Positions 3,281 through 59,014 of a DNA stretch of 64,000 bases are shown here, piece by piece. How positions within the stretch are numbered: position 1 is the stretch's first letter; each line of letters begins with the position of its first letter. The notes under the pieces are model-generated. The model was not told the DNA's origin. It worked only from the letters and a program-made list of their open reading frames with translations, and made no database searches. Source of the stretch: a virus (Duplodnaviria > Caudoviricetes); the IMG/VR virus record IMGVR_UViG_3300035703_002708; one strand, written 5' to 3'. Made by a program: the position numbers and the translations under genes.

Positions 3281-5581
3281 ATGTCTTGTCAATATAATTT
3301 TAGTCAATTTTCAGTAACAGGAGACTGTGAAAATAATAGTTCTGGAGGTTTTACGCTTTACTTATCCTCAACCTCGGAACCGATGAGTATTACTTGGTTG
3401 TTGCCAAATCCATGGCCACCCGGCATTGGAGGACCTCAAGTCGAGACCCCAATTTATAATGGAACTTACACTTATTTAGGAATTCCTGCAGGAACATATG
3501 TTTTTACTGTAAATGATAGTTGCGGAAGTCCTACCGCCACCACTGAAAATAATAGAGAAACTATAAGTATTACTATATCATCAGGTTCGTCATGCGTCAA
3601 TATAACAGATGTTGTAAATACCACTTGCGGTAATTCTGATGGTTCTTTATTGGCAACTGTTCAGAATACAAATGGTGCTGTTAATATCAAACTATATTTG
3701 GAGGATAATGATGGTAGAGTAGTCCCATTACCACAACCACCAGGTCAAGAAGATATTACGTTTATTAGGGAAGTTGAAATAGACAATGACAATTATTTAT
3801 TTGATAATCTTCCGTATGGAAAATATTATGTTATTGCTGATGATGGAGGAGGTTGTACAGGAAGAAGTGAAAGTGTCATAATATTACCATCGGTAGGTGT
3901 TAATTTCGGGACATATATTGTTAATGATGCGGACTGTGGTAATGTAGAAACAGGTGTTGGTAAGATTTTTATAACAGGTTTGACAGGCACTGGGCCCTAC
4001 ACTTATAGATGGGAAGGTGTTGGTACTACATTAGATTATTTGGTTAACACTGAACAACCACTTACAGGTACATCAATAACAGGATTAACCGCCGGTTTTT
4101 ATCAGGCTACAGTCACGGACTCGAATGGTTGTAGTTTTTCTGTGATATCACAAGTTATCGAAAAACTTCCTGTAAGTTTAGGCAGCGTTTCAACATCACC
4201 ACCCACATGTTTTGATAGTAACGGGAAAATAACAGTACAAGTACTTAATGGTACTCCACCATATAGATTTAGTATCCCATCTATTTCATTTACAGATATA
4301 AGTTATTCTCAAACATACGTTTTCAGTGGTTTACCCGGGGGTAACTACACTATAGTAATAACCGATGCGGCTCTCTGCAGTGTTTCAACAACGACACAAA
4401 TAAATCAATCCAATAGCTTTGCTTTGGGGCCGGTGACTATTATCCCACCAACTTGCGGAAATTCAAATGGTTCCATTTCGATAGGACTCGTTGGTAACAC
4501 AAATTCAAGTAGTTATTTATATTCTTTGAGTGGTGCTAATGGAGTAACTTTTTCGAGTGTAACATCAACTAACAACACATTTTCTAATTTATTACCTCAG
4601 AATTATTTTCTTACAATTACCGACAATATTTGTACCTATACTCAGTTAATAAACTTATCGTCCAATTCACTTTTTACCATATCAACACAAACTTCGGGTG
4701 CAACATGTGGTAATAATAACGGGAGTGTTACCATAACTAAATCAACAGGTGGTACAAGTACCTTTTCATATTGGATAGAGGATGTTGATGGGAATAACGA
4801 CCAAACATTGGACAACACACCACTGAGTTCTTGTACATTTTACAATTTGGCGCCTGGAAGTTATATTGCTTACGTAAGTGACAAAAATAGATGTCAAGAA
4901 CAAACCTTCTTTGAAATAAGTAACAGTGAACCTGTAAATTTTATTTTGATACCAACGGATTCCACAAATGGGTCAAACGGACAAATAATTGCAAATATCT
5001 ATCAAGGAACACCTCCTTTTACTTTGACATGGTCATCTAATGTCAATGGACAAACAGGTACAACTGTAACTAATTTATCTGCCGGTACCTATAGTCTCAT
5101 AGTGCAAGACAGTGCAGGTTGCGTTCAGTCCAATACGGTTACACTGTCAGGTACTTATAATGCAACAAATTTCTCATTGTTTAATGTATGTAATAGCGTG
5201 ATAAGTTCTACCGGACAATTTACAGAAAGAAGTTTATCAAAGATGTTAGTTGAGGGTTACATAGATTTGACTAGTGGATGTACAAATTGTCTTATGAATT
5301 CGGCAATATTTTCAGCGGTTACAACAGTTGCAGGAACTGGTTTTAGTCAGTCTTTCTATACCGCAACAACGTTAAACGATGTTCCTTCAGAATCAAATTG
5401 GGCGACAACTGTTCAGAATCTTCTTAGTGGTATAACAGGTGTAGGTACCGTTACAGTTAATACTACAGAAAACACAATTACATTAGACACTTCTTGTGAG
5501 GAAAGTACAAACGCATTGGCCAATCAAAATATTACCGTCGAACTTAAAATTGTTTATGACATAGATTGTGAAAGTTGTTAA
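3281..5581 (+). CDS. SprB-repeat, Cys/Thr-rich putative tail fibre/adhesin
   Basis: Several units of the form TC..xxG.I.v...gGTpPY.y.w....f.nL.aG.Y...vTD.ngC, matching SprB repeats by eye. Confidence 0.65.
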   Translation: MSCQYNFSQFSVTGDCENNSSGGFTLYLSSTSEPMSITWLLPNPWPPGIGGPQVETPIYNGTYTYLGIPAGTYVFTVNDSCGSPTATTENNRETISITISSGSSCVNITDVVNTTCGNSDGSLLATVQNTNGAVNIKLYLEDNDGRVVPLPQPPGQEDITFIREVEIDNDNYLFDNLPYGKYYVIADDGGGCTGRSESVIILPSVGVNFGTYIVNDADCGNVETGVGKIFITGLTGTGPYTYRWEGVGTTLDYLVNTEQPLTGTSITGLTAGFYQATVTDSNGCSFSVISQVIEKLPVSLGSVSTSPPTCFDSNGKITVQVLNGTPPYRFSIPSISFTDISYSQTYVFSGLPGGNYTIVITDAALCSVSTTTQINQSNSFALGPVTIIPPTCGNSNGSISIGLVGNTNSSSYLYSLSGANGVTFSSVTSTNNTFSNLLPQNYFLTITDNICTYTQLINLSSNSLFTISTQTSGATCGNNNGSVTITKSTGGTSTFSYWIEDVDGNNDQTLDNTPLSSCTFYNLAPGSYIAYVSDKNRCQEQTFFEISNSEPVNFILIPTDSTNGSNGQIIANIYQGTPPFTLTWSSNVNGQTGTTVTNLSAGTYSLIVQDSAGCVQSNTVTLSGTYNATNFSLFNVCNSVISSTGQFTERSLSKMLVEGYIDLTSGCTNCLMNSAIFSAVTTVAGTGFSQSFYTATTLNDVPSESNWATTVQNLLSGITGVGTVTVNTTENTITLDTSCEESTNALANQNITVELKIVYDIDCESC

Positions 5582-6325
5582 ATGATGCAAAATATTATAA
5601 TATCATCTATAACAGGTTTAACACCACCCTATGAAATTTATGTTTGTGATTTCTTAGGTAATAATTGTCAATTAGTAGAAATAATCACATATAGTGTCCC
5701 CCCAATTGAAGTAATATCTTTACCTGATTATTTTAGTGGTGCCCCTGCAGTCTCATTGAAAATTGTGGAAACAAACGTACCCTGTGAAAAAAATATACCA
5801 GTTGTTTGTTCCTATTTCGGTAATGTGTTATTCACATTTTGTAAATGTAGTGATTTATCACAATGTATTTACACCGAAACAAATCCATTTTTGGTTTTTG
5901 GACAAGTTGTATCTTTGAACGAATATCCTGAATGTTGGCAATTTTCAGGATACCAATTTACAAATCAAACAGGAGAAGTTTTAACAGTAAACGGACTACC
6001 TTTTAATTCATGTCAAGAATGTTATGATGTTGTTGCCCCCTCTTATTTTAGTGCCTGTTGCTCAAACTACACTTTTAATTTTGATGAAACATTTCAGTCA
6101 ACATTCGAACCTAATAAAAGTTGGTATGTAAATATCCCTCCATCTGTTAGTGGTACGGGGACAGGATATACAGGTTGTACAGTTGTTATAAGTAACTATA
6201 TAACTCCTGACCAAACTTATGTACAAGCAGATTGGAACAACATTACGAATACCAATAATTCACCTGTTTTTCCTAATCCACCGATGTTTGATTGCAATGA
6301 TTGTACTGAAGTAATATCTTGTTAA
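5582..6325 (+). CDS. Cys-rich virion-associated protein
   Basis: 247 aa, many Cys (CQEC, CNDC, CC); N-terminal domain similar to ORF 12416-12652. Confidence 0.55.
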   Translation: MMQNIIISSITGLTPPYEIYVCDFLGNNCQLVEIITYSVPPIEVISLPDYFSGAPAVSLKIVETNVPCEKNIPVVCSYFGNVLFTFCKCSDLSQCIYTETNPFLVFGQVVSLNEYPECWQFSGYQFTNQTGEVLTVNGLPFNSCQECYDVVAPSYFSACCSNYTFNFDETFQSTFEPNKSWYVNIPPSVSGTGTGYTGCTVVISNYITPDQTYVQADWNNITNTNNSPVFPNPPMFDCNDCTEVISC

Positions 6326-6393
6326 TTATAAATCATTAATCTTAGTATTTATAACTGAAAACTTGAATTTATTTTTTTACAATAATATTATAA

Positions 6394-8037
6394 ATGGCAA
6401 CTTCATATTTAAAATCCTGTTGTGACAATAGTGTTACATACACACTGACCGGTTTAGGGTCCGCTTTGTCAATCGGCAGCATCTATCATGTAGTAATACC
6501 TAATTATTTTTCGGGTTGTTCTACAGTAATCACATCCTCACAACTTCAACCAGGTTCACCATCCTATCCATCTTCTACTGCGGTTCTCACAGGTCCATAT
6601 GTAAATTGTTCAACTTGTACTTCAGCATATACATGCAATAGAATAACCGCAACAAGTGAATGTGATGTTATAACAATCGCTCCAATGTCTGTTCAATGTT
6701 CTCCTAATATAACTGCAGGCACAATAACAATGATTGTCACAGGAGGAACTCCTCCATACAAAATAAAATGGTCAACTGGACTTTTAGGGCCCACTCTATC
6801 AAATGCTGAGTACGGTGTTGCTTATGGTGTAACCGTAACTGATTATAGTTGGCCTGATGGAGGGCCGGATTATACTGCGGTTACAACTTGTTTCCTAGCA
6901 TTACCGACCTCAACACCAACACCAACACCAACTATAACGCCTTCACCTCCTCCTAATAATACAACAAATTTATGTCTTCAAGTAACTATAGGAAATAGAA
7001 CTTACACCTACAATTTCACCCCTTCCAATACAAGAATAAATAATAAATTTACATGGATTTACGGTCCATATGTTCTCTCATGGCAAACTTCACAAGGAAC
7101 ATCCTTTTGGCAAGTTCAAATGCCGATTGGAGATGGTGTAAATCCTATTATCTTAAGAAATTCATCAAATACCTCAGTTCCTTTAGGGTCATTTATTGCT
7201 TTTGGAAGTCCTGGTACTACAGCAGTCATGACAAATGGGGTTTGCGGTAACCCAATTATGACCTTACAAAATGCTACAATTACTCCACCAACTTGTCAAT
7301 CAACGCCATTAACAGGTTCTATTTATGTTAATATATTGAACGGTCAACCACCTGTCACATACTCCAAAGACGGTGGATTAACATCACAATCAAGTCCATT
7401 ATTTTCTAATTTACCGGCAGGAAGTTATACAATAACGGTACAAGATGGTAACTCAACTACATTACAACAACAGGTTACAATACCTCAACCTCCGGCAACC
7501 AACACATACACTTTAGATGTGGAAACTAACATAGTTCCTCAAAATCCTGGAAACAGTTTATTGAATTTTACTGTAAAAGTGAGGGACGTAAATGGAAACT
7601 TAGTCACAACACTTCCTACAAACACAATAATATCATTCAACATACAGGCTGAAAATATACTACAGACAACTGTGTTAGGGGGAGGTAACGTTATATCAAA
7701 TGTACAAATAAAAAAGAATAATATTACACAATCTATAAGTCCGATAACCAGCACGACAAACAGTGCAAATGCAGTATCTACGTGTCCACCTGCTCAAAGT
7801 ACTCTATACAGTACAGGTAATATAAAACAATATAATGGATTAACCATCTCAGGTAGTGATTCTATAACTGGAACTATTCAGGTCCAAGTAACCAAAACTG
7901 CGGTAGGTAATGTCTGTATCTTGAAATCCTTGGACACAGTCAGATTGATTAATAAACAAATTACAGGTTGTAGTTGTTGTAACATAAGTAATACATCATC
8001 AACATCTACACAGATGCAAACTAACGCGGTTAAATAA
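6394..8037 (+). CDS. Cys-rich SprB-repeat adhesin/fibre with Pro-Thr linker
   Basis: GGTPPYKIKW and FSNLPAGSYTITVQD SprB-like units; PTPTPTPT linker; TATTTAT motif at 6346. Confidence 0.55.
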   Translation: MATSYLKSCCDNSVTYTLTGLGSALSIGSIYHVVIPNYFSGCSTVITSSQLQPGSPSYPSSTAVLTGPYVNCSTCTSAYTCNRITATSECDVITIAPMSVQCSPNITAGTITMIVTGGTPPYKIKWSTGLLGPTLSNAEYGVAYGVTVTDYSWPDGGPDYTAVTTCFLALPTSTPTPTPTITPSPPPNNTTNLCLQVTIGNRTYTYNFTPSNTRINNKFTWIYGPYVLSWQTSQGTSFWQVQMPIGDGVNPIILRNSSNTSVPLGSFIAFGSPGTTAVMTNGVCGNPIMTLQNATITPPTCQSTPLTGSIYVNILNGQPPVTYSKDGGLTSQSSPLFSNLPAGSYTITVQDGNSTTLQQQVTIPQPPATNTYTLDVETNIVPQNPGNSLLNFTVKVRDVNGNLVTTLPTNTIISFNIQAENILQTTVLGGGNVISNVQIKKNNITQSISPITSTTNSANAVSTCPPAQSTLYSTGNIKQYNGLTISGSDSITGTIQVQVTKTAVGNVCILKSLDTVRLINKQITGCSCCNISNTSSTSTQMQTNAVK

Positions 8038-21916: not shown

Positions 21917-22420
21917 ATGAAATATCTTTTAGTTGTCTTCGGAGACTTTTCGAAAAAAACAAAGTTGGTCAAAACAATTGCTGAATCCGTTTCCATCATA
22001 TCTGATGAGGAGTCAGTTAAATATAGTTACGGTGATAATGTTGCGGTCATGAATTTCAACTCACTCGATGACCAAGAAGAGGTTGCCATATATATAGATG
22101 AGTTGTTAAAAGGTATCGTGACCCTATTTTTATTGACTCCATACACTAATAATGTATACACTTCGTTACCTATGGATGTTCACAAATATCTGTTTGGAAC
22201 GTCAGAAATCATAGATGAGGATAATTATAATTTGGAGGACGAAATCGACATTGACCGATTAGTACCACCACTTAATTCAAAATCTTCAACGAAAGTTGCC
22301 AAACTTAAGATAAAAGAACTATCTTTGGATGAAATTTTGGATAAGATAAACACAGAAGGAATTCACTCTTTAACAGAACAAGAAAGACTAACTTTAGAAA
22401 AACACTCAAACAGAATATGA
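21917..22420 (+). CDS. Hypothetical protein with DUF6576-like C-terminal helical hairpin
   Basis: LDEILDKINTEGIHSLTEQERLTL resembles the tail of Bacteroidota rhomboid-associated proteins. Confidence 0.55.
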   Translation: MKYLLVVFGDFSKKTKLVKTIAESVSIISDEESVKYSYGDNVAVMNFNSLDDQEEVAIYIDELLKGIVTLFLLTPYTNNVYTSLPMDVHKYLFGTSEIIDEDNYNLEDEIDIDRLVPPLNSKSSTKVAKLKIKELSLDEILDKINTEGIHSLTEQERLTLEKHSNRI

Positions 22421-23217
22421 AAGAGAAAAACACCTCCCTACCAATTAACCAAGAAGAAATTCAATCATACCTCAAAGATTTGAGGAAGATTAAGGTTATG
22501 ACCCCCGAGCGGGAAAAAGAACTTGCAAAACTTATTTCTTCAGGAAACCTGACAGAAGACCAACGTAAAAAAATTAACAAAGAACTCGTTGAGGGTAATT
22601 TGAGGTTTGTTATTACGGTCGCCAAACAATATCAAAATCAAGGGCTTGATTTTCCCGATTTGATTGCCGAAGGTAATATGGGTCTTATCAAAGCAATCGA
22701 GAATTTTGATTGGAGTAAGAACCTACGTTTTATATCATATGCAGTGTGGTGGGTTCGTCAGTGTATTTTACAATCTTTAAACGAGAACGCCCGTACTATT
22801 CGTCTTCCAGTTAATGTGGTTCAGGACTTACATAGGGCAAAAAAAGAAATCGAAAACAACGGTAAACAACTTCCCGAGAAGTTTACATCACTACCATCTA
22901 TGGTAAACCTCAACGATGAAATCAACGAGGATGGTGATACACTTATCGATGTTATCGTAAATGAAAACGTGACCATGCCTGACGAAGTGTTCAACACCAA
23001 AGATAAGTTGAAACAAAAACTTATGGAAGTATTGAATGTTTTGGATGAAAGAGAACGTGTAATTATTGAAGATTATTTTGGACTCGCAGGAACGCCCCGT
23101 ACATTGGAGGACATAGGAGAGGATTTTGACCTCACAAAAGAACGAGTTCGTCAAATCAAAGAAAAAGCGTTACGTAAGTTACGCAACGAAAGTTCAGAAC
23201 TCTTTGACTACATTTAA
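22417..23217 (+). CDS. RNA polymerase sigma70-family factor (Bacteroidota RpoD-like)
   Basis: NLRFVITVAKQYQNQG, DLIAEGNMGL, RFISYAVWWVRQ (region 2), TLEDIGEDFDLTKERVRQIKEKALRKLR (region 4.2). Confidence 0.92.
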   Translation: MKEKNTSLPINQEEIQSYLKDLRKIKVMTPEREKELAKLISSGNLTEDQRKKINKELVEGNLRFVITVAKQYQNQGLDFPDLIAEGNMGLIKAIENFDWSKNLRFISYAVWWVRQCILQSLNENARTIRLPVNVVQDLHRAKKEIENNGKQLPEKFTSLPSMVNLNDEINEDGDTLIDVIVNENVTMPDEVFNTKDKLKQKLMEVLNVLDERERVIIEDYFGLAGTPRTLEDIGEDFDLTKERVRQIKEKALRKLRNESSELFDYI

Positions 23218-42062: not shown

Positions 42063-42629
42063 ATGAAAAAAATAATCTTTACACTTATTCTTACAATCTT
42101 ATCTGTTGTAGGATATTCGCAAGTACCAACCCCCAATCCTGCAAATGGTGATTTTTATTGTCCTAATGATGTTCAAGTATATGGTGACCAAGTTATCGAC
42201 CCAAACGCCACTTATTCATTTTCAATCACACCAGCATTTCCTTTTAACGTAATTTCAGGTGGAGACCAAATTGAGGTTACTTGGACAACACCAGGTGTTT
42301 ATACAATTGAAATTACAAAAACAATCGGTGAGTGTTCTTCTGTTGCGACCGCACAAATTACGGTTTATCCTCCGACAATTCCTATTGTAATTAACGATGC
42401 GTTATGTCAAGGAAACGGAACAATAAACTTGACAGCAAATCCTTTGGGAACAAATCCTGTTTTTGGTGGTATAGGTGTAACAGGAAGTGTGTTTAACGCA
42501 GCAGGGTTAGCACCTGGCAACTATCCAATCACTTTTACATCCATTGATGCAAATGGTTGTCCTATGTCAGGAAATGGTTTAATTGTGATAACTCCTCCTC
42601 CTACCACACCTATAATCTATACTGACTAA
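42063..42629 (+). CDS. Secreted Ig-like/PKD-like protein
   Basis: Signal peptide; VTWTTPGVYTI, GNYPITF Ig-like strands. Confidence 0.65.
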   Translation: MKKIIFTLILTILSVVGYSQVPTPNPANGDFYCPNDVQVYGDQVIDPNATYSFSITPAFPFNVISGGDQIEVTWTTPGVYTIEITKTIGECSSVATAQITVYPPTIPIVINDALCQGNGTINLTANPLGTNPVFGGIGVTGSVFNAAGLAPGNYPITFTSIDANGCPMSGNGLIVITPPPTTPIIYTD

Positions 42630-43243
42630 TGAAAATACTGGGGGTATTAAATTCATTTACAGCGAAGGTATTACTGATATTTACAGTAATATTTATACTT
42701 TCTTCTGCTGTTCCTGTAGGTGAGGACCCACAAGTAATTAACCTTTGTGATACAACTTTCGTATTAAAAAAATACACGGTATATCCTCCATCAGGATATT
42801 TTAGTTCTTGGTTTGTAAATCCCGAAGCAACTATTATTGGCTCGTCAACTGAAAACACATTAACAATCAAATGGACTGAACCAGGAAACTATACAATTAT
42901 CGCTCAGTTCTCAAATGGTAGATGTGTAAGTAATAGTAAATTGGATGTTATTGTTGAAGGTTGCCCTGATTTTACGTTGTATATACCAAACACATTTACT
43001 CCTGATGGTGATAACATAAACGATGTATTTGGTGCATACGGAACCGAAATTGAAGAGTTCAGTATGGAAATATATAACAGGTGGGGAGAACTCATATTTG
43101 TATCTAACGCACTTGAATATAGATGGGATGGATACTATAAAGGTAACCTTTGCCAACAAGATGTCTATGTATTCAAAATAAGATATAAAGCAAGAAACTT
43201 CGTATCCAAAGCAATCTACGGTAGAGTTCTTCTACTTAATTAG
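42629..43243 (+). CDS. Protein with T9SS type B C-terminal sorting domain (gliding-motility-associated CTD)
   Basis: YIPNTFTPDGDNINDVF...IYNRWGELIF...WDG...DVYVFKI matches the CHU_C/TIGR04131 pattern. Confidence 0.85.
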   Translation: MKILGVLNSFTAKVLLIFTVIFILSSAVPVGEDPQVINLCDTTFVLKKYTVYPPSGYFSSWFVNPEATIIGSSTENTLTIKWTEPGNYTIIAQFSNGRCVSNSKLDVIVEGCPDFTLYIPNTFTPDGDNINDVFGAYGTEIEEFSMEIYNRWGELIFVSNALEYRWDGYYKGNLCQQDVYVFKIRYKARNFVSKAIYGRVLLLN

Positions 43244-50580: not shown

Positions 50581-50603
50581 GTTTTGTATCATATTTATTG
50601 GAT

Positions 50604-52001
50604 ATGAAAAAAATACTCAAGGAATCAGGTATCAGAGATATTAATAAGTTAGCCGACAGATACAAAAAAGCAAAAATTTATTTTCACCAAGATTTGGACG
50701 GAGTAACTACCGCCCTAGCCATGAAAAACTACTTAGAAAACCAAGGGATTAAAGTAGTTGATACAGAAATAATACAATACGGAGATAGAGAGTTTGCGGT
50801 CAAAAAAACTGACGCAGAAGGAGATGTAATGCCGGTTTTGGTTGATTTTGCACACGGAAAACCCATGTTTGTCATTCATACAGACCACCACGACACTCAA
50901 GCAGGAGCAGAAGATACCAAATCAACAAGTTTCAGACCATCAAGGTCAAATGTTAAAACAATATCACAAACGGTATCACCCAAAGAAATATTCACATCTG
51001 AAGACATTGAATTAATCTCTATGGTTGATTCCGCCGACTATGCCTCTAAAGACATAACACCAAAAGAAGTTATCACTTATCTATTTCAATTAGATAAGGA
51101 TAAATCACTCCAAAGAAATAAAACCTTATTAGGTTTGGTTACGAACAAACTTTTATTGGCATTCAAAAACAAACCTGAGTTTTTGGAAAATATCGTAATG
51201 AATGCGCAGCCATCAATAATCTCCATTCTAAACAACATCAAAAGACAAATCAAAGAAAGAGGTTTTGCTGATGTTGATACATTAGAAAAAAACAAAGAGG
51301 GTTACATAGAACAAATGAAAAAAAGCCCAAATGTCCAAGATTTAGGTAATATTATAGTTCAATACGGTGGTGGTTATATGGTAAAACCAGGTTCTTATGA
51401 TAGATACACACCATTTGAGAATAACCCCGATGCTGACTTTTTGGTAATCGCATGGCCTTTAGGGTTGGTTCAAGCATCTTGTAATCCATTCAAAAAAGAA
51501 AGACAACTCAAAGGAGTTAATTTAGGTGAAGTTAAAGATGAAGTACTATCGAAGTGGGAAGGTCAGTTGAAACAAAAACAAGTTCCACTCTCAACAATTA
51601 AGTGGGTATCAGAAACATCAGTAGGTGAAGGTTCAGTAGGTTTTACATTCAAAGATTTTGTTGCAATTTACGGAAAAGAATTTACTAAGATGGATAATGG
51701 TAGAGATATCTTAACAGAAATTGGTTATTCTATGAACAAACACTTTGATGAATTATCTGAGGATGAGAAAGAGTTATTAGATAACGTTACAGTAAATGCT
51801 TGGGACATAATACAAGCAAACTCCGGTGGGCACAAATGTATAACAAACATCTCGGGACTTAATTATTTGGGAAGAGGAAAAAGACCACCTTCAGGAAAAC
51901 CAAAATTTGGTGACGAAGAAAAGGAATCATACGTTAAATTTGTAAAGATGGTTCAAAAAGAGTTTGTGGATGTGTTGAAAAAGAAAATCGATACTAAATA
52001 A
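50604..52001 (+). CDS. DHH-family phosphoesterase
   Basis: HQDLDGV, LVDFA, HTDHHD, VDSAD, C-terminal SGGH (DHHA1-like GGH); TATTTAT at 50592. Confidence 0.7.
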   Translation: MKKILKESGIRDINKLADRYKKAKIYFHQDLDGVTTALAMKNYLENQGIKVVDTEIIQYGDREFAVKKTDAEGDVMPVLVDFAHGKPMFVIHTDHHDTQAGAEDTKSTSFRPSRSNVKTISQTVSPKEIFTSEDIELISMVDSADYASKDITPKEVITYLFQLDKDKSLQRNKTLLGLVTNKLLLAFKNKPEFLENIVMNAQPSIISILNNIKRQIKERGFADVDTLEKNKEGYIEQMKKSPNVQDLGNIIVQYGGGYMVKPGSYDRYTPFENNPDADFLVIAWPLGLVQASCNPFKKERQLKGVNLGEVKDEVLSKWEGQLKQKQVPLSTIKWVSETSVGEGSVGFTFKDFVAIYGKEFTKMDNGRDILTEIGYSMNKHFDELSEDEKELLDNVTVNAWDIIQANSGGHKCITNISGLNYLGRGKRPPSGKPKFGDEEKESYVKFVKMVQKEFVDVLKKKIDTK

Positions 52002-54575: not shown

Positions 54576-55093
54576 ACAAAAAAGTATCTTTGGTAGTAAT
54601 TCCAAAACCAAACGAAGAGATTACACAGTGCAAAACAATTATGAGTAAAGAAGGTCGTATGACCATCGCTACTTATGACCACACAGTGAAACAAGAACTC
54701 AAATCTGGATTCACTCCTGTTGAGTATTATTTTGTGGATGACCAGCCCATATTACCCAATAATTATTATATCTCATATGAGAATGGTCCTACATTAAAAC
54801 TTCATACTGAGATTGACCACGTTATGAACAAAGGTCAATTCAAAAAAGGTGAGAGAAGAGTTTATCTTACTGAGAAAGATGTGTATTGGTTTTATAAGTC
54901 AGATACCAAAGAATATTTTGACTTCGCACCTTGGCATTTGAATGAAATAGTTGAAAAAGGATTTACTTGTTTTGTAAAAGAAAAAGATAACGAATGTAAT
55001 GGTGAGACCTGTCTAAATTGTAATTGCCACGAATTCAAAGAAGAAAATTTTGTGGCAGATAAATATAGAGATAAGTTTGTGGTTGTCGTTTAA
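54572..55093 (+). CDS. Hypothetical protein with C-terminal Cys cluster
   Basis: CNGETCLNCNC. Confidence 0.55.
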   Translation: MNKKVSLVVIPKPNEEITQCKTIMSKEGRMTIATYDHTVKQELKSGFTPVEYYFVDDQPILPNNYYISYENGPTLKLHTEIDHVMNKGQFKKGERRVYLTEKDVYWFYKSDTKEYFDFAPWHLNEIVEKGFTCFVKEKDNECNGETCLNCNCHEFKEENFVADKYRDKFVVVV

Positions 55094-55107
55094 TGTTCTT
55101 ATATTTG
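55076..55107 (+). promoter_or_regulatory. Bacteroidota-type housekeeping promoter
   Basis: TTTG-N20-TATATTTG. Confidence 0.65.
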
Positions 55108-55127
55108 TAGAACCAAAACGATAAACT

Positions 55128-55349
55128 ATGATTACTGTTGAAAAAGACACCCAAATCACGATTGTTTGCACTTTCGAAGGGCAAAATGAAAATGAGTTTT
55201 TTGATTTTGATGTTTGTAAAAAAGGAGATGTGTTAAGGTCAGAGAACTTGTATAACGAACTTTCGTTCGAACCCGAAGTATTACAGGTAAATTATTTTAT
55301 CGGTGACACATTCATTAAAGGATATTCTAAAATTGTAAATTGTAATTAA
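55128..55349 (+). CDS. Hypothetical protein
   Basis: 73 aa after promoter. Confidence 0.5.
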   Translation: MITVEKDTQITIVCTFEGQNENEFFDFDVCKKGDVLRSENLYNELSFEPEVLQVNYFIGDTFIKGYSKIVNCN

Positions 55350-55350
55350 T

Positions 55351-55557
55351 ATGGAAACCCCAATCCAAAAAGCAATAAAAATGTGTGATGACCTCTTGGC
55401 AGAACTCGAGGTAATGTCACGAACCGATTATGACGGGGCTCAACCCCGCATCGAAATGGTAGAACTTGTATCAACTAAAATCCGGTCGTTGGTAACAGAC
55501 GAGAAGGAAATGATTAATCAGATTTATTCAAACTGCGAAAAAATTAAGTTACAGTAA
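55351..55557 (+). CDS. Hypothetical protein
   Basis: 68 aa. Confidence 0.5.
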   Translation: METPIQKAIKMCDDLLAELEVMSRTDYDGAQPRIEMVELVSTKIRSLVTDEKEMINQIYSNCEKIKLQ

Positions 55558-55559
55558 TT

Positions 55560-56000
55560 GTGAAAAGGTTTATTGTCATTTTGTCAGTTATTTTGGGTTT
55601 TATGACATCTTGTCAGAAAGAGGACCCTATTGACCCTCCGACATATAATCAAATCAATCAACCACCAACTACTGATATTCCTAAATTTGCTGGCTCCACT
55701 TGGGTAATATATAAGTTTCAACCCTTATATTTCGTGACCGACCCAGAGTTAGTCACCGATACTTTGATATTCATCAATAACACCGAACTAAAATATAATG
55801 GTGTTTCTTGTGAATACTCTTTTTACCCAAGTGGATATCTGTGGTATTTCGAACTAAAACAAACTCCGAGATTTATTGGAAGTATAAATGCGTTTTTAAG
55901 TGAAGGACCAATCAATTATGGTGAGATTTTGGCACAAGAATATACAAATGTTTACAACCGAAACCAAAAATGGTTGGTTTGGATGAAAAAAGTAAATTGA
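55560..56000 (+). CDS. Lipoprotein with Bacteroidota surface-export-like signal
   Basis: Signal peptide II ending FMTS-C followed by QKEDP; GTG start. Confidence 0.7.
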   Translation: MKRFIVILSVILGFMTSCQKEDPIDPPTYNQINQPPTTDIPKFAGSTWVIYKFQPLYFVTDPELVTDTLIFINNTELKYNGVSCEYSFYPSGYLWYFELKQTPRFIGSINAFLSEGPINYGEILAQEYTNVYNRNQKWLVWMKKVN

Positions 56001-56005
56001 CCCTC

Positions 56006-56034
56006 TTGACCTTTTAAATCACAATTCTTATACT
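56006..56034 (+). promoter_or_regulatory. -35/-10 type promoter of the TROVE gene
   Basis: TTGACC-N17-TATACT. Confidence 0.7.
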
Positions 56035-56070
56035 TTCTAAACAAATTCGTCAAAAAAAAATTGTACTAAT

Positions 56071-57696
56071 ATGGCAAAGTTCCGAAATTCCGCAGTTGTA
56101 GAAAAATTAGATAACACCCCACCCAAAGAAAACTTGGTTGCATCAAACGCAGTTCCGAAACCCGATACGACAAATCTTCAAGGGTTCGAGGCTTATTCAA
56201 TTGAAAATTGGCTCCGTCTGATTTCTATTTTGAATACTTCTAAATTGGAGAACCAGTATTATCGTTCAGAAACAGAAACTATGAAAGAGTTGAAATCTCT
56301 TGTGGATATCTGTGGTAAAGAGGACCCATACTTTGTGGCTCAGTGTATCGTGTATTCTCGTTGTATTGGTGAGGGTATGAGAAGTATTAATCACTTGGCG
56401 GCAGTTTATCTTGCTCCATTTATGAGTGGTAAAGACTGGTCAAAACGTTTCTTCTCAGGTTGGGATAAGAAATCTCAAAAAGGAGGTACCGTGTTTCGTC
56501 CTGATGATATGAGTGAGATGGTTAGTTGTTTTACCGCCCTTAATGGTAAGTCAATCACCAACTCAATGAAAAAAGGTTTTGCCTCTACGTTAGAGAAACT
56601 TGACACATACTCACTTTTGAAGTATAAGAGTTCGATTTTGGATTTGTTCAATTTGGTTCATCCAAAACAAGAAAACTCAAACGCCACCGTTGAATTCGAA
56701 GGTAGGGTTGTTCCAACATTTGAAGCCATCGTTAAAGGTTATAATGTGTCTGCTGACACTTGGGAGGTTGCTCAGTCAGATGCTGGACAAATTGTGGCTC
56801 AGGCGGTTCGTGAAGGTAAAATCTCAACAGAAGAAGCAAAACAAGTTCTTACTGAGGCAAAGTCTGAGAATTGGAAAGGATTACTTACCGAAAACAAACT
56901 TGGTATCTTGGCAGCAGTTCGTAACATTCGTAACATTCTGTTGAACAAACCTGATGGTGACACTATTAATAAGTTGTGTTCTCTTTTGAGTGATGAAGCC
57001 GCAATTCGTAACGGAAAGGTAATGCCATACCAATTAGATATGGCTAACGAAGTTCTAATATCAGAATTTAACGATTCTAACTCTCGTAAGGTATCAAAGG
57101 CGTTACTTGATGGTTATGAAAAATCCATTCCGAACCTTGCTGAGTTACTTACAGGTAACAACCTTGTAATGATTGATATGTCAGGTTCTATGAACACAGG
57201 AATCAATGACCCTAAAGGCAAGTCACGTTACAAATCTACGTGTTTGGACAAGGCATCACTAATCGGTATGACAATCGCCAAGGCAGTAAACGCCGATGTA
57301 ATTCGTTTCGGTTCACACGCTGAGTATGTTTCTTACAATACAAACTCTGATGTGTTCAGTTTGTCTAAATCTATCATTCAAGGAATGGGAGGAACCTCAC
57401 TGGCACAAGCGTGGAGTACGGCAGAAGCATCAGGTCGTAAGTATGATAGAGTATTTATTCTGTCAGATAATGAGTGTAATGAAGGTTCAACTTACTCTCG
57501 ATACAAGAGTTATGTTGAAAAAGTTGGGGACCCGTATGTCTATTCAATAGACCTAGCCGCTTACGGAACAATGGCTATCGCGGGACCAAAAGTAAGATAC
57601 TACTACGGATATGGTTTTTCAATGTTCGAAGATATTGCAAAATCAGAGTTCAACCCGATGCACCACATCGAAAAAATCCGCAAAGTAGAAATCTAA
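56071..57696 (+). CDS. TROVE-domain Ro60/Rsr-like RNA-binding protein with vWA domain
   Basis: NLQGFEAY, DPYFVAQCIVYSR..GMRS (TROVE); MIDMSGSM MIDAS, GGTS, ILSDNE, IDLAAYG (vWA); 541 aa. Confidence 0.9.
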   Translation: MAKFRNSAVVEKLDNTPPKENLVASNAVPKPDTTNLQGFEAYSIENWLRLISILNTSKLENQYYRSETETMKELKSLVDICGKEDPYFVAQCIVYSRCIGEGMRSINHLAAVYLAPFMSGKDWSKRFFSGWDKKSQKGGTVFRPDDMSEMVSCFTALNGKSITNSMKKGFASTLEKLDTYSLLKYKSSILDLFNLVHPKQENSNATVEFEGRVVPTFEAIVKGYNVSADTWEVAQSDAGQIVAQAVREGKISTEEAKQVLTEAKSENWKGLLTENKLGILAAVRNIRNILLNKPDGDTINKLCSLLSDEAAIRNGKVMPYQLDMANEVLISEFNDSNSRKVSKALLDGYEKSIPNLAELLTGNNLVMIDMSGSMNTGINDPKGKSRYKSTCLDKASLIGMTIAKAVNADVIRFGSHAEYVSYNTNSDVFSLSKSIIQGMGGTSLAQAWSTAEASGRKYDRVFILSDNECNEGSTYSRYKSYVEKVGDPYVYSIDLAAYGTMAIAGPKVRYYYGYGFSMFEDIAKSEFNPMHHIEKIRKVEI

Positions 57697-57708
57697 TGGG
57701 GATTAGTT

Positions 57709-57739
57709 ATGGGGTGAATGGTTGATTCACCCCATTTTT
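57709..57739 (+). terminator. Intrinsic terminator after the TROVE gene
   Basis: ATGGGGTGAAT-loop-ATTCACCCCAT followed by TTTT. Confidence 0.8.
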
Positions 57740-57759
57740 CAAAAAAACAATCAACCCAC

Positions 57760-57788
57760 TTGACTGGTGTCAAAAGTTTGATTAATAT
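57760..57788 (+). promoter_or_regulatory. -35/-10 promoter of the ncRNA unit
   Basis: TTGACT-N17-TAATAT; boxA-like GTTCTTT at 57798. Confidence 0.6.
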
Positions 57789-57812
57789 TGTCACATAGTT
57801 CTTTAAAAAATA

Positions 57813-57939
57813 GACGTAGTAAGATTAGGGTTACTTCAATACATCGGTTCGAATCCGATACCTGTGAAAACAGGTTAGACAAGTGGATAAGTCGGAATTC
57901 TCATAAATTCAAAACAACACCCTGTTCATCATTCTCGTC
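57813..57939 (+). ncRNA. Y-RNA-like RNA 1 (YrlA-like) with permuted tRNA-like insert
   Basis: GACG/CGTC closing stem, TAGTAA..GTTACTTC and AACAC..ATTCT motifs; internal T-arm ATCGG-TTCGAAT-CCGAT; next to Ro60 gene. Confidence 0.75.
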
Positions 57940-57951
57940 ACCTTATACTTT

Positions 57952-58024
57952 AAGGTAGTAAGTTAAGTGTTACTTCGAAATAATCTGGAAATGTTCAAAA
58001 AAAAACACTTACGATATTCTCCTT
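57952..58024 (+). ncRNA. Y-RNA-like RNA 2 (short form)
   Basis: AAGG/CCTT closing stem, same motifs, 8-bp inner stem TAAGTGTT/AACACTTA. Confidence 0.65.
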
Positions 58025-58037
58025 AAATCGTTCTTTT

Positions 58038-58166
58038 CAGATAGTAATTCAAGAGTTACTTCTACAATTTAAATTAAATCGCGCCCTATATGGGCATCTA
58101 TCTATGAACGAAATCTAACCTTCGGGTTATTTTTCACCTAAAAACACTCTTGGAAAAATTCTTCTG
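58038..58166 (+). ncRNA. Y-RNA-like RNA 3
   Basis: CAGA/TCTG closing stem, same motifs, CAAGAGT/ACTCTTG inner stem, hairpins GCCC-TATAT-GGGC and TAACC-TTCG-GGTTA. Confidence 0.65.
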
Positions 58167-58175
58167 AATTCATTT

Positions 58176-58205
58176 AAAAAGGGGACCATCGGGTCTCCTT
58201 TTTTT
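58176..58205 (+). terminator. Intrinsic terminator ending the ncRNA unit
   Basis: AAAAAGGGGACC-ATCG-GGTCTCC followed by T run. Confidence 0.8.
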
Positions 58206-58239
58206 GTTTTATACACTATTTATAAAAAAAGGACATACT

Positions 58240-58545
58240 ATGGTTAATATAATGATTTCTGAAGAACAACTTGCCAGATTGGTTAATAAAATGAAACCAG
58301 TTAATGAAAGCAAAGATGGTAGTTATATGGCAAAACAACAACTATTTACCATCGCTACAATGGCTCACGAAATGTGGCAAGCGTTGGATGAGGGAGAACA
58401 ATTGGACGATTGGATGGAATCAAAAATCGCACAAGCAGACCAAAGTATTACTTCCGTTGTTAAGGCTTATTTCTATGATGAGATAACCGATGACCAAAAA
58501 GGAATGGGAATGTTGAATTACGATGATTTAGTAATAGGAAAATAA
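58240..58545 (+). CDS. Small protein with N-terminal leader, putative head-internal protein
   Basis: MVNIMISEEQLARLVNKMKPVNE; TATTTAT at 58217. Confidence 0.6.
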   Translation: MVNIMISEEQLARLVNKMKPVNESKDGSYMAKQQLFTIATMAHEMWQALDEGEQLDDWMESKIAQADQSITSVVKAYFYDEITDDQKGMGMLNYDDLVIGK

Positions 58546-58558
58546 AAAACGATATATT

Positions 58559-59014
58559 ATGAAACCCCTCCGAAAATATTTCAGTTTGTTGGGGACACTT
58601 CTTGGACTTTTTCTACCATTATTTTTAGGATTAATTGCAGGGTTCGACAAACCTTCATTTTCAAGTTATTATTTTACAGATGCCAAACTATTTTTTATTG
58701 TTAGTTTGACAATCATATCTTTAAGTTTTGTTACATTATCCAAAACTTGGTTCATACCCTGTTTATCACTTATCGTACTAACATACTTCAATTGTCACGA
58801 TTTTAGTGAGATACATCAATTCGCGGCTCATTTATTTTTTGCTAGTTCAACTTATCTAATACTCAAAGACAAAAGGTTCAGGGGATTTGGATTTTTGATA
58901 TTACTTGCGACTCCGATTGTATTTTTCTCTATTTACTATTTTGAACTAATCTCGGTTTTACTTATTTCAATTTTTCACTTATTTTATATGCGAAGAATTC
59001 TAAAAACAAAATGA
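58559..59014 (+). CDS. Multi-pass membrane protein
   Basis: About five hydrophobic segments; contains IHQFAAHLFF. Confidence 0.65.
   Translation: MKPLRKYFSLLGTLLGLFLPLFLGLIAGFDKPSFSSYYFTDAKLFFIVSLTIISLSFVTLSKTWFIPCLSLIVLTYFNCHDFSEIHQFAAHLFFASSTYLILKDKRFRGFGFLILLATPIVFFSIYYFELISVLLISIFHLFYMRRILKTK

What the first reader, a model, noticed from the sequence alone, without database searches (positions are those of the whole stretch)
56006..58205. Phage Ro60 (TROVE) gene with its own three-member Y-RNA-like array
Seen: a TROVE-vWA gene with promoter and terminator is followed by a separate ~410-nt non-coding unit (TTGACT-N17-TAATAT promoter, boxA-like GTTCTTT, GC-rich terminator). The unit holds three repeats of one scaffold, N4-TAGTAA-N3-4-stem-GTTACTTC...AACAC-stem-ATTCT-N4'. 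The closing stems differ in sequence but stay complementary (GACG/CGTC, AAGG/CCTT, CAGA/TCTG), and the inner stems also vary while pairing (TAGGGT/ACCCTG, TAAGTGT/ACACTTA, CAAGAGT/ACTCTTG). The central inserts are unrelated. Known: bacterial Ro60/Rsr binds adjacent-encoded Y RNAs through a terminal stem, and in Deinococcus Y RNA tethers Rsr to PNPase. Inference: the phage encodes a modular RNP in which one Ro60 loads three interchangeable RNA adaptors, perhaps to redirect host RNA decay or repair, or to counter tRNA-targeting defences. No rtcB is present in this window.
Basis: partly seen in the sequence, partly recalled or inferred. Interest (0 to 1): 0.92.

Follow-up and report, generated by a model that had tools for sequence, protein, structure and literature searches.

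The report
Phage Ro60 gene with three partner RNAs
A large freshwater phage carries a Ro60-type RNA-binding ring protein followed by three small structured RNAs built on one shared stem. One RNA is a back-to-front tRNA look-alike, and the stem belongs to a widespread RNA family, absent from Rfam, that sits beside this protein in many phages, including the cultured gut phage crAss001.

Summary
Window 56071-57696 encodes a Ro60/TROVE-vWA protein: the predicted fold matches only Ro60 structures at the top, and the MIDAS motif is intact. Downstream, 57813-58166 holds three modules on one scaffold: closing stem P1, a conserved bulged helix UAGUAA/UUCU, covarying stem P2, and the junction box GUUACUUC.

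A covariance model built from relatives finds exactly these three modules in the 64-kb window. It also finds 53 modules in 20 related loci and none in 907 kb of control phage DNA. P1 and P2 covary strongly. Every module that lies in a locus with a TROVE gene is on that gene's strand and within 4 kb.

Module 1 is a circularly permuted tRNA mimic: T arm, closed acceptor hairpin, D arm and an anticodon-like arm. In relatives the same handle carries ordinary cloverleafs.

Phage Ro60 with Y-like RNAs is already published (Chen 2014; Thermus phage phiLo 2025). This is therefore a new variant of a known kind, not a new system. The handle lacks the published GNCGAA/CGAA motif, and no Rfam family, including YrlA RF02553, matches.

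Binding by the protein and the function remain inferred. This scan has noted analogous phage Ro60-RNA pairs on other DNA before.

The parts
56006..56034 (+). Sigma-70-like promoter match upstream of the Ro60 gene (TTGACC-N17-TATACT)
   Evidence: a consensus match only.
56071..57696 (+). Ro60/TROVE-vWA protein gene, 541 aa
   Evidence: PHROG 850 'RNA-binding protein', E 1.4e-32, full length. Thermus phage Ro60 (PDB 9KOP/9L5Y), E 2e-10 over residues 32-508. AF2 model with pLDDT 80; the top 13 Foldseek PDB matches are all Ro60. MIDAS residues D369, S371, S373, T442 and D466 are invariant in 13 relatives.
57711..57739 (+). Hairpin (9-bp stem, 5-nt loop) followed by T5: a likely terminator of the Ro60 gene
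   Evidence: Read from the sequence; conserved in L001-L004. The scan did not list it.
57760..57788 (+). Sigma-70-like promoter match for the RNA unit (TTGACT-N17-TAATAT)
   Evidence: The same hexamers and spacing are kept in L001-L004.
57797..57809 (+). Leader motif AGTTCTTTAAAAA just upstream of module 1
   Evidence: The motif RGTTCTTTRAAAA lies 12-22 nt upstream of the first module in arrays of L002, L006, L008 (two arrays), L009 and L105 (two arrays). The heptamer is not enriched in the window. Function unknown.
57813..57939 (+). Module 1: the handle (P1 GACG/CGTC; UAGUAA...UUCU; P2 UAGGGU/ACCCUG; UACUUC) carrying a circularly permuted tRNA mimic. T arm 57843-57859, acceptor-like hairpin with GAAA loop 57860-57875, UA, D arm 57878-57893, anticodon-like hairpin 57895-57910.
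   Evidence: R2 41.0 bits, E 2.5e-6. The fold has these arms. All four arms show compensatory changes in 9 orthologous modules.
57949..58027 (+). Module 2: a minimal handle (7-bp P1 UUUAAGG/CCUUAAA, P2 UAAGUGU/ACACUUA) with a short A-rich loop
   Evidence: R2 67.9 bits, E 1.4e-12; alignment A3.
58036..58168 (+). Module 3: the handle (P1 UUCAGA/UCUGAA, 9-bp P2) carrying two hairpins (GCCC/GGGC, and a UUCG-capped stem). No T or D arm.
   Evidence: R2 43.5 bits, E 6.6e-7. Fold z -2.9. The insert is shared only with L001 and L002.
58176..58209 (+). Terminator-like hairpin (12 pairs) plus T-run that closes the RNA unit
   Evidence: conserved in L001 and L002.

Best explanation
The stretch is a phage Ro60-Y RNA system. 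The 541-aa protein is a Ro60-type ring (TROVE HEAT repeats plus a vWA domain with MIDAS).

The roughly 410-nt unit downstream most likely yields three non-coding RNAs. They may arise as one transcript that is then cut, or as read-through products. Each RNA closes on the same handle: stem P1, a conserved bulged helix (bulged U; AG paired with CU; U-U mismatch; A-U) made by UAGUAA and UUCU, covarying stem P2, and the single-stranded junction box (G)UUACUUC facing an A-rich strand.

Inferred step: the handle is what the phage Ro60 recognises, as Ro60 recognises the conserved 5' strand of the terminal stem of Y RNAs.

The variable head is the effector end. Module 1 presents an L-shaped tRNA mimic with a sealed acceptor end and an anticodon-like arm. 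Modules 2 and 3 present a short A-rich loop and two hairpins.

By analogy with Rsr-Y RNA-PNPase and with Thermus phage phiLo Ro60-Yrl-PNPase, the particles probably tether or gate the Ro60 ring towards host RNA enzymes or tRNA-binding factors early in infection.

Shown here: the protein fold, RNA structure conservation, and linkage. Inferred: binding, processing and partners.
For: Protein:
- Full-length matches to the phage RNA-binding family PHROG 850 and to the solved Thermus phage Ro60.
- The predicted fold matches Xenopus and human Ro60, Deinococcus Rsr and phiLo Ro60 at E about 1e-14, TM 0.52-0.64.
- Relatives are named SS-A/Ro and pass Pfam TROVE and vWA_Ro60.

RNA:
- Strong covariation in P1 and P2 over 53 modules.
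- Model R2 is specific: 0 hits in 907 kb of controls.

Linkage:
- 44 of 44 modules in loci with a TROVE gene are on its strand, 6-3817 nt away.
- In complete contigs of 100-294 kb, the hits found lie only near TROVE.
- Hits lie next to TROVE genes of only 24-33% identity in crAss001, a 634-kb megaphage and csAssE-Sib.
- Hits occur in 9 of 12 MAG contigs with relatives, and all 15 are on the TROVE strand.

YrlA-like traits:
- YUAY (UUAC) immediately after the stem's 5' strand.
- T arm, closed acceptor hairpin, UA, then D arm, in that order (PMC4201824; 10.1101/312249).

Precedent: phage Ro60 binds adjacent Y-like RNAs and recruits PNPase (PMC12135203).

Weak support: contigs from four metatranscriptome runs in three studies cover 57744-58023, and three of the four also hold parts of the gene.
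Against: - There are no binding data and no RNA ends. The metatranscriptome contigs could be DNA carry-over, and none covers module 3.
- The published Ro60-contact motif (GNCGAAN0-1G, or CGAA) is absent from the handle.
- No Rfam Y RNA or YrlA match was found.
- In relatives the modules are scattered through tRNA gene arrays and some enclose full cloverleafs. The handle could therefore serve tRNA biology without Ro60.
- Three module-bearing contigs show no TROVE gene. All three loci lie at contig ends, and the records are 8-62% complete.
- The window protein itself is below the Pfam TROVE cut-off.
Confidence: 0.75

Rival explanations
1. The modules belong to phage tRNA biology and do not need Ro60. 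The handle would be a processing, stability or packaging cassette for tRNA-like RNAs: precursors cut by RNase P/Z, or decoys for host anticodon nucleases. It would sit near TROVE only because both belong to the same RNA-metabolism neighbourhood.
For: In relatives the modules lie inside tRNA arrays. Some enclose cloverleafs that ARAGORN and Rfam call tRNA, with 7-bp acceptor stems. Three module-bearing contigs show no TROVE gene.
Against: The window has no tRNA gene at all, yet it keeps three modules 114-339 nt after TROVE. L001, L002, L009, L105 and crAss001 have the same layout. Strand and distance linkage holds in every case scored: 44 of 44 and 15 of 15. The TROVE-less loci all lie at ends of incomplete contigs. 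Many heads have no tRNA features.
Confidence: 0.12
2. The RNAs are bound by a different protein, for example a small conserved protein encoded next to the array (58240-58545), and Ro60 is a bystander or acts on other substrates.
For: The 101-aa ORF directly follows the array in the window, L001 and L002 and matches no Pfam family.
Against: That ORF does not follow the arrays of L006, L008 or L009. TROVE is the only neighbour shared across proteins of 24-98% identity.
Confidence: 0.05
3. The structures are cis-acting parts of the TROVE message (3' UTR stabilisers or attenuators), not stand-alone RNAs.
For: In L009 and L105 the first module starts 6 and 85 nt after the stop codon, with no obvious promoter between.
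Against: In the window a terminator-like hairpin and a conserved promoter-like site separate the gene from the array. In L017, L041, L107, L054 and L097 modules lie upstream of the gene, or kilobases away between tRNA genes.
Confidence: 0.05

Closest known systems
Bacterial and phage YrlA-type Y RNAs with Rsr/Ro60 (Chen et al. 2014, PMC4201824; Wang et al. 2018, 10.1101/312249; Rfam RF02553)
   Same: They are encoded next to a Ro60 gene and on its strand, often several per locus. The 5' and 3' ends pair into a long stem, and the head is modular. YUAY comes directly after the stem's 5' strand. The tRNA mimic runs T arm, closed acceptor hairpin, UA, D arm. YrlA was reported in 22 phages.
   Different: The handle motif is UAGUAA...UUCU plus UACUUC, not GNCGAAN0-1G. 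Module 1 keeps a closed anticodon-like arm, and the handle enters at the variable-loop position, whereas in YrlA the Ro stem continues the anticodon stem and there is no anticodon loop. RF02553 does not match the window and gives only sub-threshold hits in relatives. Modules 2 and 3 have no tRNA-like part, which resembles YrlB.
Thermus phage phiLo Ro60 with Yrl1/Yrl2 (PMC12135203; PDB 9KOP, 9L5Y)
   Same: A phage-encoded Ro60 with more than one adjacent Y-like RNA. It is the best sequence match among solved structures and has the same fold. Binding and PNPase recruitment are shown there.
   Different: About 20% protein identity. The phiLo Yrl RNAs were picked by a CGAA motif in a large bulge and lie upstream of the gene. 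No tRNA mimic is reported for them.
Deinococcus radiodurans Rsr-Yrn1-PNPase (RYPER)
   Same: A Ro60 ring plus a Y RNA whose head tethers an effector. Yrn1 has the D-to-T (normal) arm order that is also seen in the relatives' cloverleaf-bearing modules.
   Different: No sequence match. The partner is unknown here, and no PNPase gene was seen in the window.
Metazoan Y RNAs (Rfam RF00019)
   Same: A terminal stem with a conserved bulged helix and a variable loop. From my memory of the hY1 and hY4 sequences, they contain GUAGUGR followed by GUUAUC, which looks like UAGURA...GUUACUUC.
   Different: No Rfam hit. In hY RNAs that tract is base-paired in the upper stem, and there is no GGUCCGA here. 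The resemblance may be chance.

Membership tests
Ro60 / Rsr (TROVE-vWA) proteins | Ring of HEAT-like repeats (TROVE) followed by a vWA domain, over the full length | tested here: met
   AF2 model with pLDDT 80. The top 13 Foldseek PDB matches are all Ro60/Rsr/phiLo Ro60, E 2.5e-14 to 1.4e-10. phmmer to 9L5Y/9KOP gives E 2e-10 over residues 32-508.
Ro60 / Rsr (TROVE-vWA) proteins | Passes the curated Pfam TROVE (PF05731) and vWA_Ro60 (PF25045) thresholds | tested here: inconclusive
   The window protein is below both cut-offs: 15.6 bits against 23, and 19.8 against 27.7. Relatives of 63-77% identity carry both precomputed domains.
Ro60 / Rsr (TROVE-vWA) proteins | MIDAS motif DxSxS...T...D in the vWA domain | tested here: met
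   D369, S371, S373, T442 and D466 are invariant in 13 relatives.
Ro60 / Rsr (TROVE-vWA) proteins | Binds Y RNA or misfolded RNA | not testable with these tools
   No protein-RNA tool is available. Needs EMSA or RIP.
Y RNA (general definition) | Encoded adjacent to the Ro60 gene and on the same strand | tested here: met
   The window modules lie 114, 253 and 339 nt after the stop codon. 44 of 44 and 15 of 15 modules in relatives are on the TROVE strand.
Y RNA (general definition) | The 5' and 3' ends pair into a stem that holds a conserved, bulged protein-binding helix | tested here: met
   P1 and P2 covary. The invariant pairs A-U and G-C follow a bulged U. That this helix is the binding site is inference.
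YrlA (Rfam RF02553) | Match to the family covariance model | tested here: not met
   No RF02553 hit at E up to 10 in 57600-58300 and none at gathering score in the window. Relatives score at most 42 bits against a cut-off of 69, and control genomes also give sub-threshold hits.
YrlA (Rfam RF02553) | GNCGAAN0-1G motif near the 5' end | tested here: not met
   The conserved 5' box is UAGUAA (or UAGUGA/UAGUUA) in all 53 modules. Only module 1 reads GACGUAG, which is one mismatch away.
YrlA (Rfam RF02553) | tRNA-like head in the order T arm, closed acceptor stem-loop, UA, D arm; YUAY after the stem | tested here: met
   Met by module 1 only. UUAC is nearly invariant. Modules 2 and 3 lack T and D arms.
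YrlA (Rfam RF02553) | No anticodon loop; the Ro-binding stem continues the anticodon stem | tested here: not met
   Module 1 and its 8 orthologues have a closed, covarying 4-5-bp hairpin after the D arm, with a CU-NNN-AA type loop. The handle joins at the variable-loop position.
Metazoan Y RNA (RF00019) | Match to the family model / GGUCCGA helix | tested here: not met
   No hit at E up to 10.

The most novel reading that the evidence does not exclude
The UAGUAA/UACUUC/UUCU handle is a universal loading cassette. With it, Ro60 proteins of Bacteroidota-type phages (crAss-like phages, freshwater jumbo phages) display a changeable set of tRNA-shaped heads: permuted mimics with real anticodon-type loops and, in relatives, whole cloverleafs with many anticodons. 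These particles would act on the host's tRNA world, for instance as decoys or sensors for anticodon nucleases, or as devices that route damaged tRNAs to decay or repair. They would not simply copy the Rsr-PNPase rRNA-decay role.
Probability: 0.15. Interest if true: 0.85.

Novelty: new variant of a known kind. Interest (0 to 1): 0.55.

Why it matters
Ro60-Y RNA particles are conserved from bacteria to humans, yet their effector logic is poorly understood. What phages use them for is essentially unknown beyond one Thermus phage study.

This locus defines a compact RNA handle that can be searched for. It marks Ro60 partner RNAs across very distant phages, including crAss001, which can be grown in the laboratory and whose TROVE gene is an early gene (PMC8375218). 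That makes the partner RNAs and their targets directly testable.

The family also shows, on one scaffold, several ways of mounting a tRNA shape: permuted with an anticodon arm, normal order, or none. That is useful material for asking what the tRNA-like head recruits.

Tried and rejected
- Rfam at gathering score on the whole window found nothing, and at E up to 10 on 57600-58300 only noise.
- ARAGORN found no tRNA in the window.
- blastn of 55000-59000 against GenBank phages found no match.
It was useful only after filtering by structure and by the model.
- My first model, R1, had the P2 register off by one column and was discarded.
- An alternative local hairpin between UAGUAA and UUACU, predicted by RNAalifold, was considered. 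Both boxes are nearly invariant, and the variants UAGUUA and GAUACUUC break it without compensation, so it has no covariation support. It also excludes P2, which does covary.
- Whole-genome model searches of MAGs scored only 150 of thousands of candidates and missed known hits, so I did not run a phylum-wide survey.
- Metatranscriptome contigs: no contig covers module 3 or shows RNA ends, and the contig starts and stops do not coincide between studies.
- The immediate downstream region of L005-L007, which carries a tRNA-like 3' end with CCA, gave no Rfam hit at gathering score.
- No whole genome is held for the window.
- The supplementary tables of Chen 2014 are not held, so I could not check which phages they list.
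Full report
**What is there**

The sequence at 55800-58500 shows the following elements.

| Coordinates | Element | Source |
|---|---|---|
| 56006-56034 | Sigma-70-like site | |
| 56071-57696 | 541-codon ORF | |
| 57711-57733 | Hairpin followed by T5 | |
| 57760-57788 | Second sigma-70-like site, TTGACT-N17-TAATAT | |
| 57813-57939, 57952-58024, 58038-58166 | Three repeats of one scaffold | |
| 58176-58203 | 12-pair terminator-like hairpin with a T-run | |

The three copies share N4-TAGTAA-N-stem-GTTACTTC...stem-N-TTCT-N4'. Their inserts are unrelated to each other.

**The protein is a Ro60 orthologue**

- Pfam TROVE and vWA_Ro60 fall just below their cut-offs.
- The protein matches PHROG 850 ('RNA-binding protein') over its full length, E 1.4e-32.
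- It matches the solved Ro60 of Thermus phage phiLo over residues 32-508, E 2e-10.
- An AlphaFold2 model from 13 relatives has mean pLDDT 80.
- Its 13 best Foldseek matches in the PDB are all Ro60: Xenopus and human Ro60, Deinococcus Rsr and phiLo Ro60, with E 2.5e-14 to 1.4e-10 and TM 0.42-0.64.
- The MIDAS residues D369, S371, S373, T442 and D466 are invariant.
- More than 2000 database relatives exist. Some are named 60 kDa SS-A/Ro, and many carry both Pfam domains.

**The repeats are a real structured-RNA family**

Relatives of the protein in IMG/VR (63-98% identity) carry the same scaffold downstream. I aligned 14 short modules and fixed the register of the inner stem. I then built covariance model R2, which has P1, a bulged U, AG paired with CU, an A-U pair, and P2.

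- R2 finds the three window modules at 67.9, 43.5 and 41.0 bits and nothing else in the 64-kb window.
- It finds 53 full-length modules in 20 loci.
- It finds none in 907 kb of 100 unrelated phage loci that hold chance matches to the sequence boxes.
- On the 53 modules, 91.8% of cells pair, against 66% after shuffling and 43-56% when partners are slid. 14 of 16 pairs change on both sides.

The alignment was fitted to the model, which favours the structure. However, the MAFFT alignment made before any model shows the same pattern: 85% paired against 68%, and 0 of 500 shuffles reach the observed value.

The invariant parts are:

- UAGUAA, with the variants UAGUGA and UAGUUA;
- UUCU, which can pair with it as a helix carrying a bulged U and a U-U mismatch;
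- (G)UUACUUC at the top of P2;
- an A-rich strand facing that box.

**Linkage to the Ro60 gene**

- In every locus that holds a TROVE gene, all 44 modules lie on its strand, 6-3817 nt from it.
- Whole-contig searches of complete 100-294-kb phage records returned hits only in the TROVE/tRNA region. That search is not exhaustive.
- Three module-bearing loci lack a TROVE gene, but each lies at the end of an incomplete contig (8, 11 and 62% complete). A fourth has the gene 3.8 kb away.
- R2 also hits next to TROVE genes that share only 24-33% identity with the window protein:

| Phage | Position of the hit | E-value |
|---|---|---|
| Bacteroides phage crAss001 | Just after gp96, in a 900-nt unannotated gap with several modules | 1.4e-7 |
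| 634-kb uncultured megaphage | About 390 nt upstream of TROVE | 2e-7 |
| csAssE-Sib | About 370 nt upstream of the Ro60 gene, before two tRNA genes | 0.0016 |

- R2 hits in 9 of 12 MAG contigs that encode relatives, and all 15 hits are on the TROVE strand.

**The heads**

Module 1 contains, in order:

- a T arm with a UUCGAAU loop (57843-57859);
- a 6-bp hairpin closed by GAAA (57860-57875);
- UA;
- a D arm with GG (57878-57893);
- a 5-bp hairpin with the loop CUCAUA (57895-57910).

These arms appear in the fold. In nine orthologous modules all four arms keep pairing through compensatory changes. The last loop has the anticodon-loop form CU-NNN-AA, with CAU, GCA, UGA or UUA in the middle.

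This is the YrlA order (T, closed acceptor, UA, D) with YUAY after the stem (PMC4201824; 10.1101/312249). Unlike YrlA, the mimic keeps a closed anticodon-type arm, and the handle leaves from the variable-loop position.

Module 2 is the bare handle with an A-rich loop. Module 3 carries two hairpins that only its closest relatives share.

In relatives the same handle encloses normal-order cloverleafs, which ARAGORN and Rfam call tRNA. Their anticodons include Lys, Ile, Pro, Leu, Cys, Gly, Gln and UCA. Some have only 4-5-bp acceptor stems followed by an extra GNRA-type hairpin. Others have 7-bp stems. The conserved CUUC(G) forms the 5' acceptor strand in these.

Three-module arrays with one permuted mimic, one cloverleaf and one short module recur, for example in L009 and L105.

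**Context**

The window is phage DNA. It carries:

- an SbcC-like nuclease and a phosphoesterase;
- a primase and a PD-(D/E)XK nuclease;
- its own sigma-70-family factor;
- DnaJ, two DNA methylases and thymidylate synthase;
- an amidase and a GIY-YIG endonuclease;
- SprB repeats and a CHU_C type IX secretion domain, which point to a Bacteroidota host.

I saw no RtcB, RNA ligase or PNPase domain among about 40 ORFs of 150 aa or more.

Near-identical DNA occurs in freshwater, riverine and sediment metagenomes from many studies. Four metatranscriptome runs from three studies hold contigs over 57744-58023, and three of them also hold parts of the gene. This is only a weak hint of expression.

**What is known**

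Chen et al. 2014 reported YrlA-type RNAs beside Ro60 in 254 bacteria and 22 phages, and stated that more variants remain to be found. A 2025 study showed that Thermus phage phiLo Ro60 binds two adjacent Y-like RNAs and assembles with host PNPase. A jumbo-phage survey noted TROVE proteins with a tRNA-like partner. In crAss001 the TROVE gene is an early gene described as a 'possible ribonucleoprotein component', and no RNA partner is mentioned. I found no paper describing this handle. Rfam has no matching family. RF02553 (YrlA) does not reach its threshold.

This scan's earlier notes describe analogous phage Ro60-like protein and RNA pairs on other genomes. One first-reader note records a recurring TACTTC loop motif elsewhere. 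Those are leads, not evidence.

**Verdict**

The reading 'phage Ro60 with its own Y-like RNAs on a shared handle' is well supported by comparative evidence. Binding, processing, partners and any anti-defence role remain inferred.

It is a new variant of a known kind. The system type is published. The handle motif, the permutation that retains an anticodon arm, and the wide spread of the family into crAss-like and freshwater jumbo phages appear undescribed.

Noticed in passing
window 57817-57822 with 57831-57835 (and the same boxes in modules 2 and 3): Box UAGUAA is complementary to the UUACU part of box GUUACUUC. RNAalifold prefers this local hairpin, which excludes P2. Natural variants break it without compensation, so it may be chance or an alternative state.
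   Followed up: partly
L130 (crAss001, MH675552) 5900-6700: The unannotated 900-nt gap after the TROVE gene gp96 holds several handle-like modules (box variant UAGUGU). It also holds a tRNA-like unit whose D and T halves are separated by an insert that contains GAGUUACUUC.
   Followed up: partly
L005-L007 4640-4890: Directly after the TROVE gene of the 185-294-kb relatives lies a structured stretch ending in a T arm plus an ...ACCA acceptor-like 3' end (tmRNA-like or tRNA-like). It has no Rfam match at gathering score.
   Followed up: no
window 22417-23217: The phage encodes its own sigma-70-family factor (regions 1.2, 2 and 4). This may explain the TTGAC-N17-TAnnnT type promoters in a phage whose other genes point to a Bacteroidota host.
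   Followed up: no
window 42629-43243; 3281-5581; 6394-8037: A CHU_C type IX secretion C-terminal domain and SprB repeats occur in phage proteins, which suggests a Bacteroidota host.
   Followed up: no
L105 592-720 (- strand): One handle-embedded cloverleaf in a relative carries a UCA anticodon. ARAGORN calls it tRNA-SeC, so it is possibly a suppressor-like head.
   Followed up: no
window 50598-52001: A 467-aa protein 4 kb upstream of the Ro60 gene has a weak DHH phosphoesterase match (E 9e-4, below the cut-off). It could be a RecJ- or NrnA-like nuclease.
   Followed up: no
G007 (contig of L088) 71234-71354: This is the best sub-threshold RF02553 (YrlA) match in a relative: 42 bits, E 1.9e-9. 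It lies about 3 kb beyond the handle modules and may be a more canonical YrlA in the same phage.
   Followed up: no
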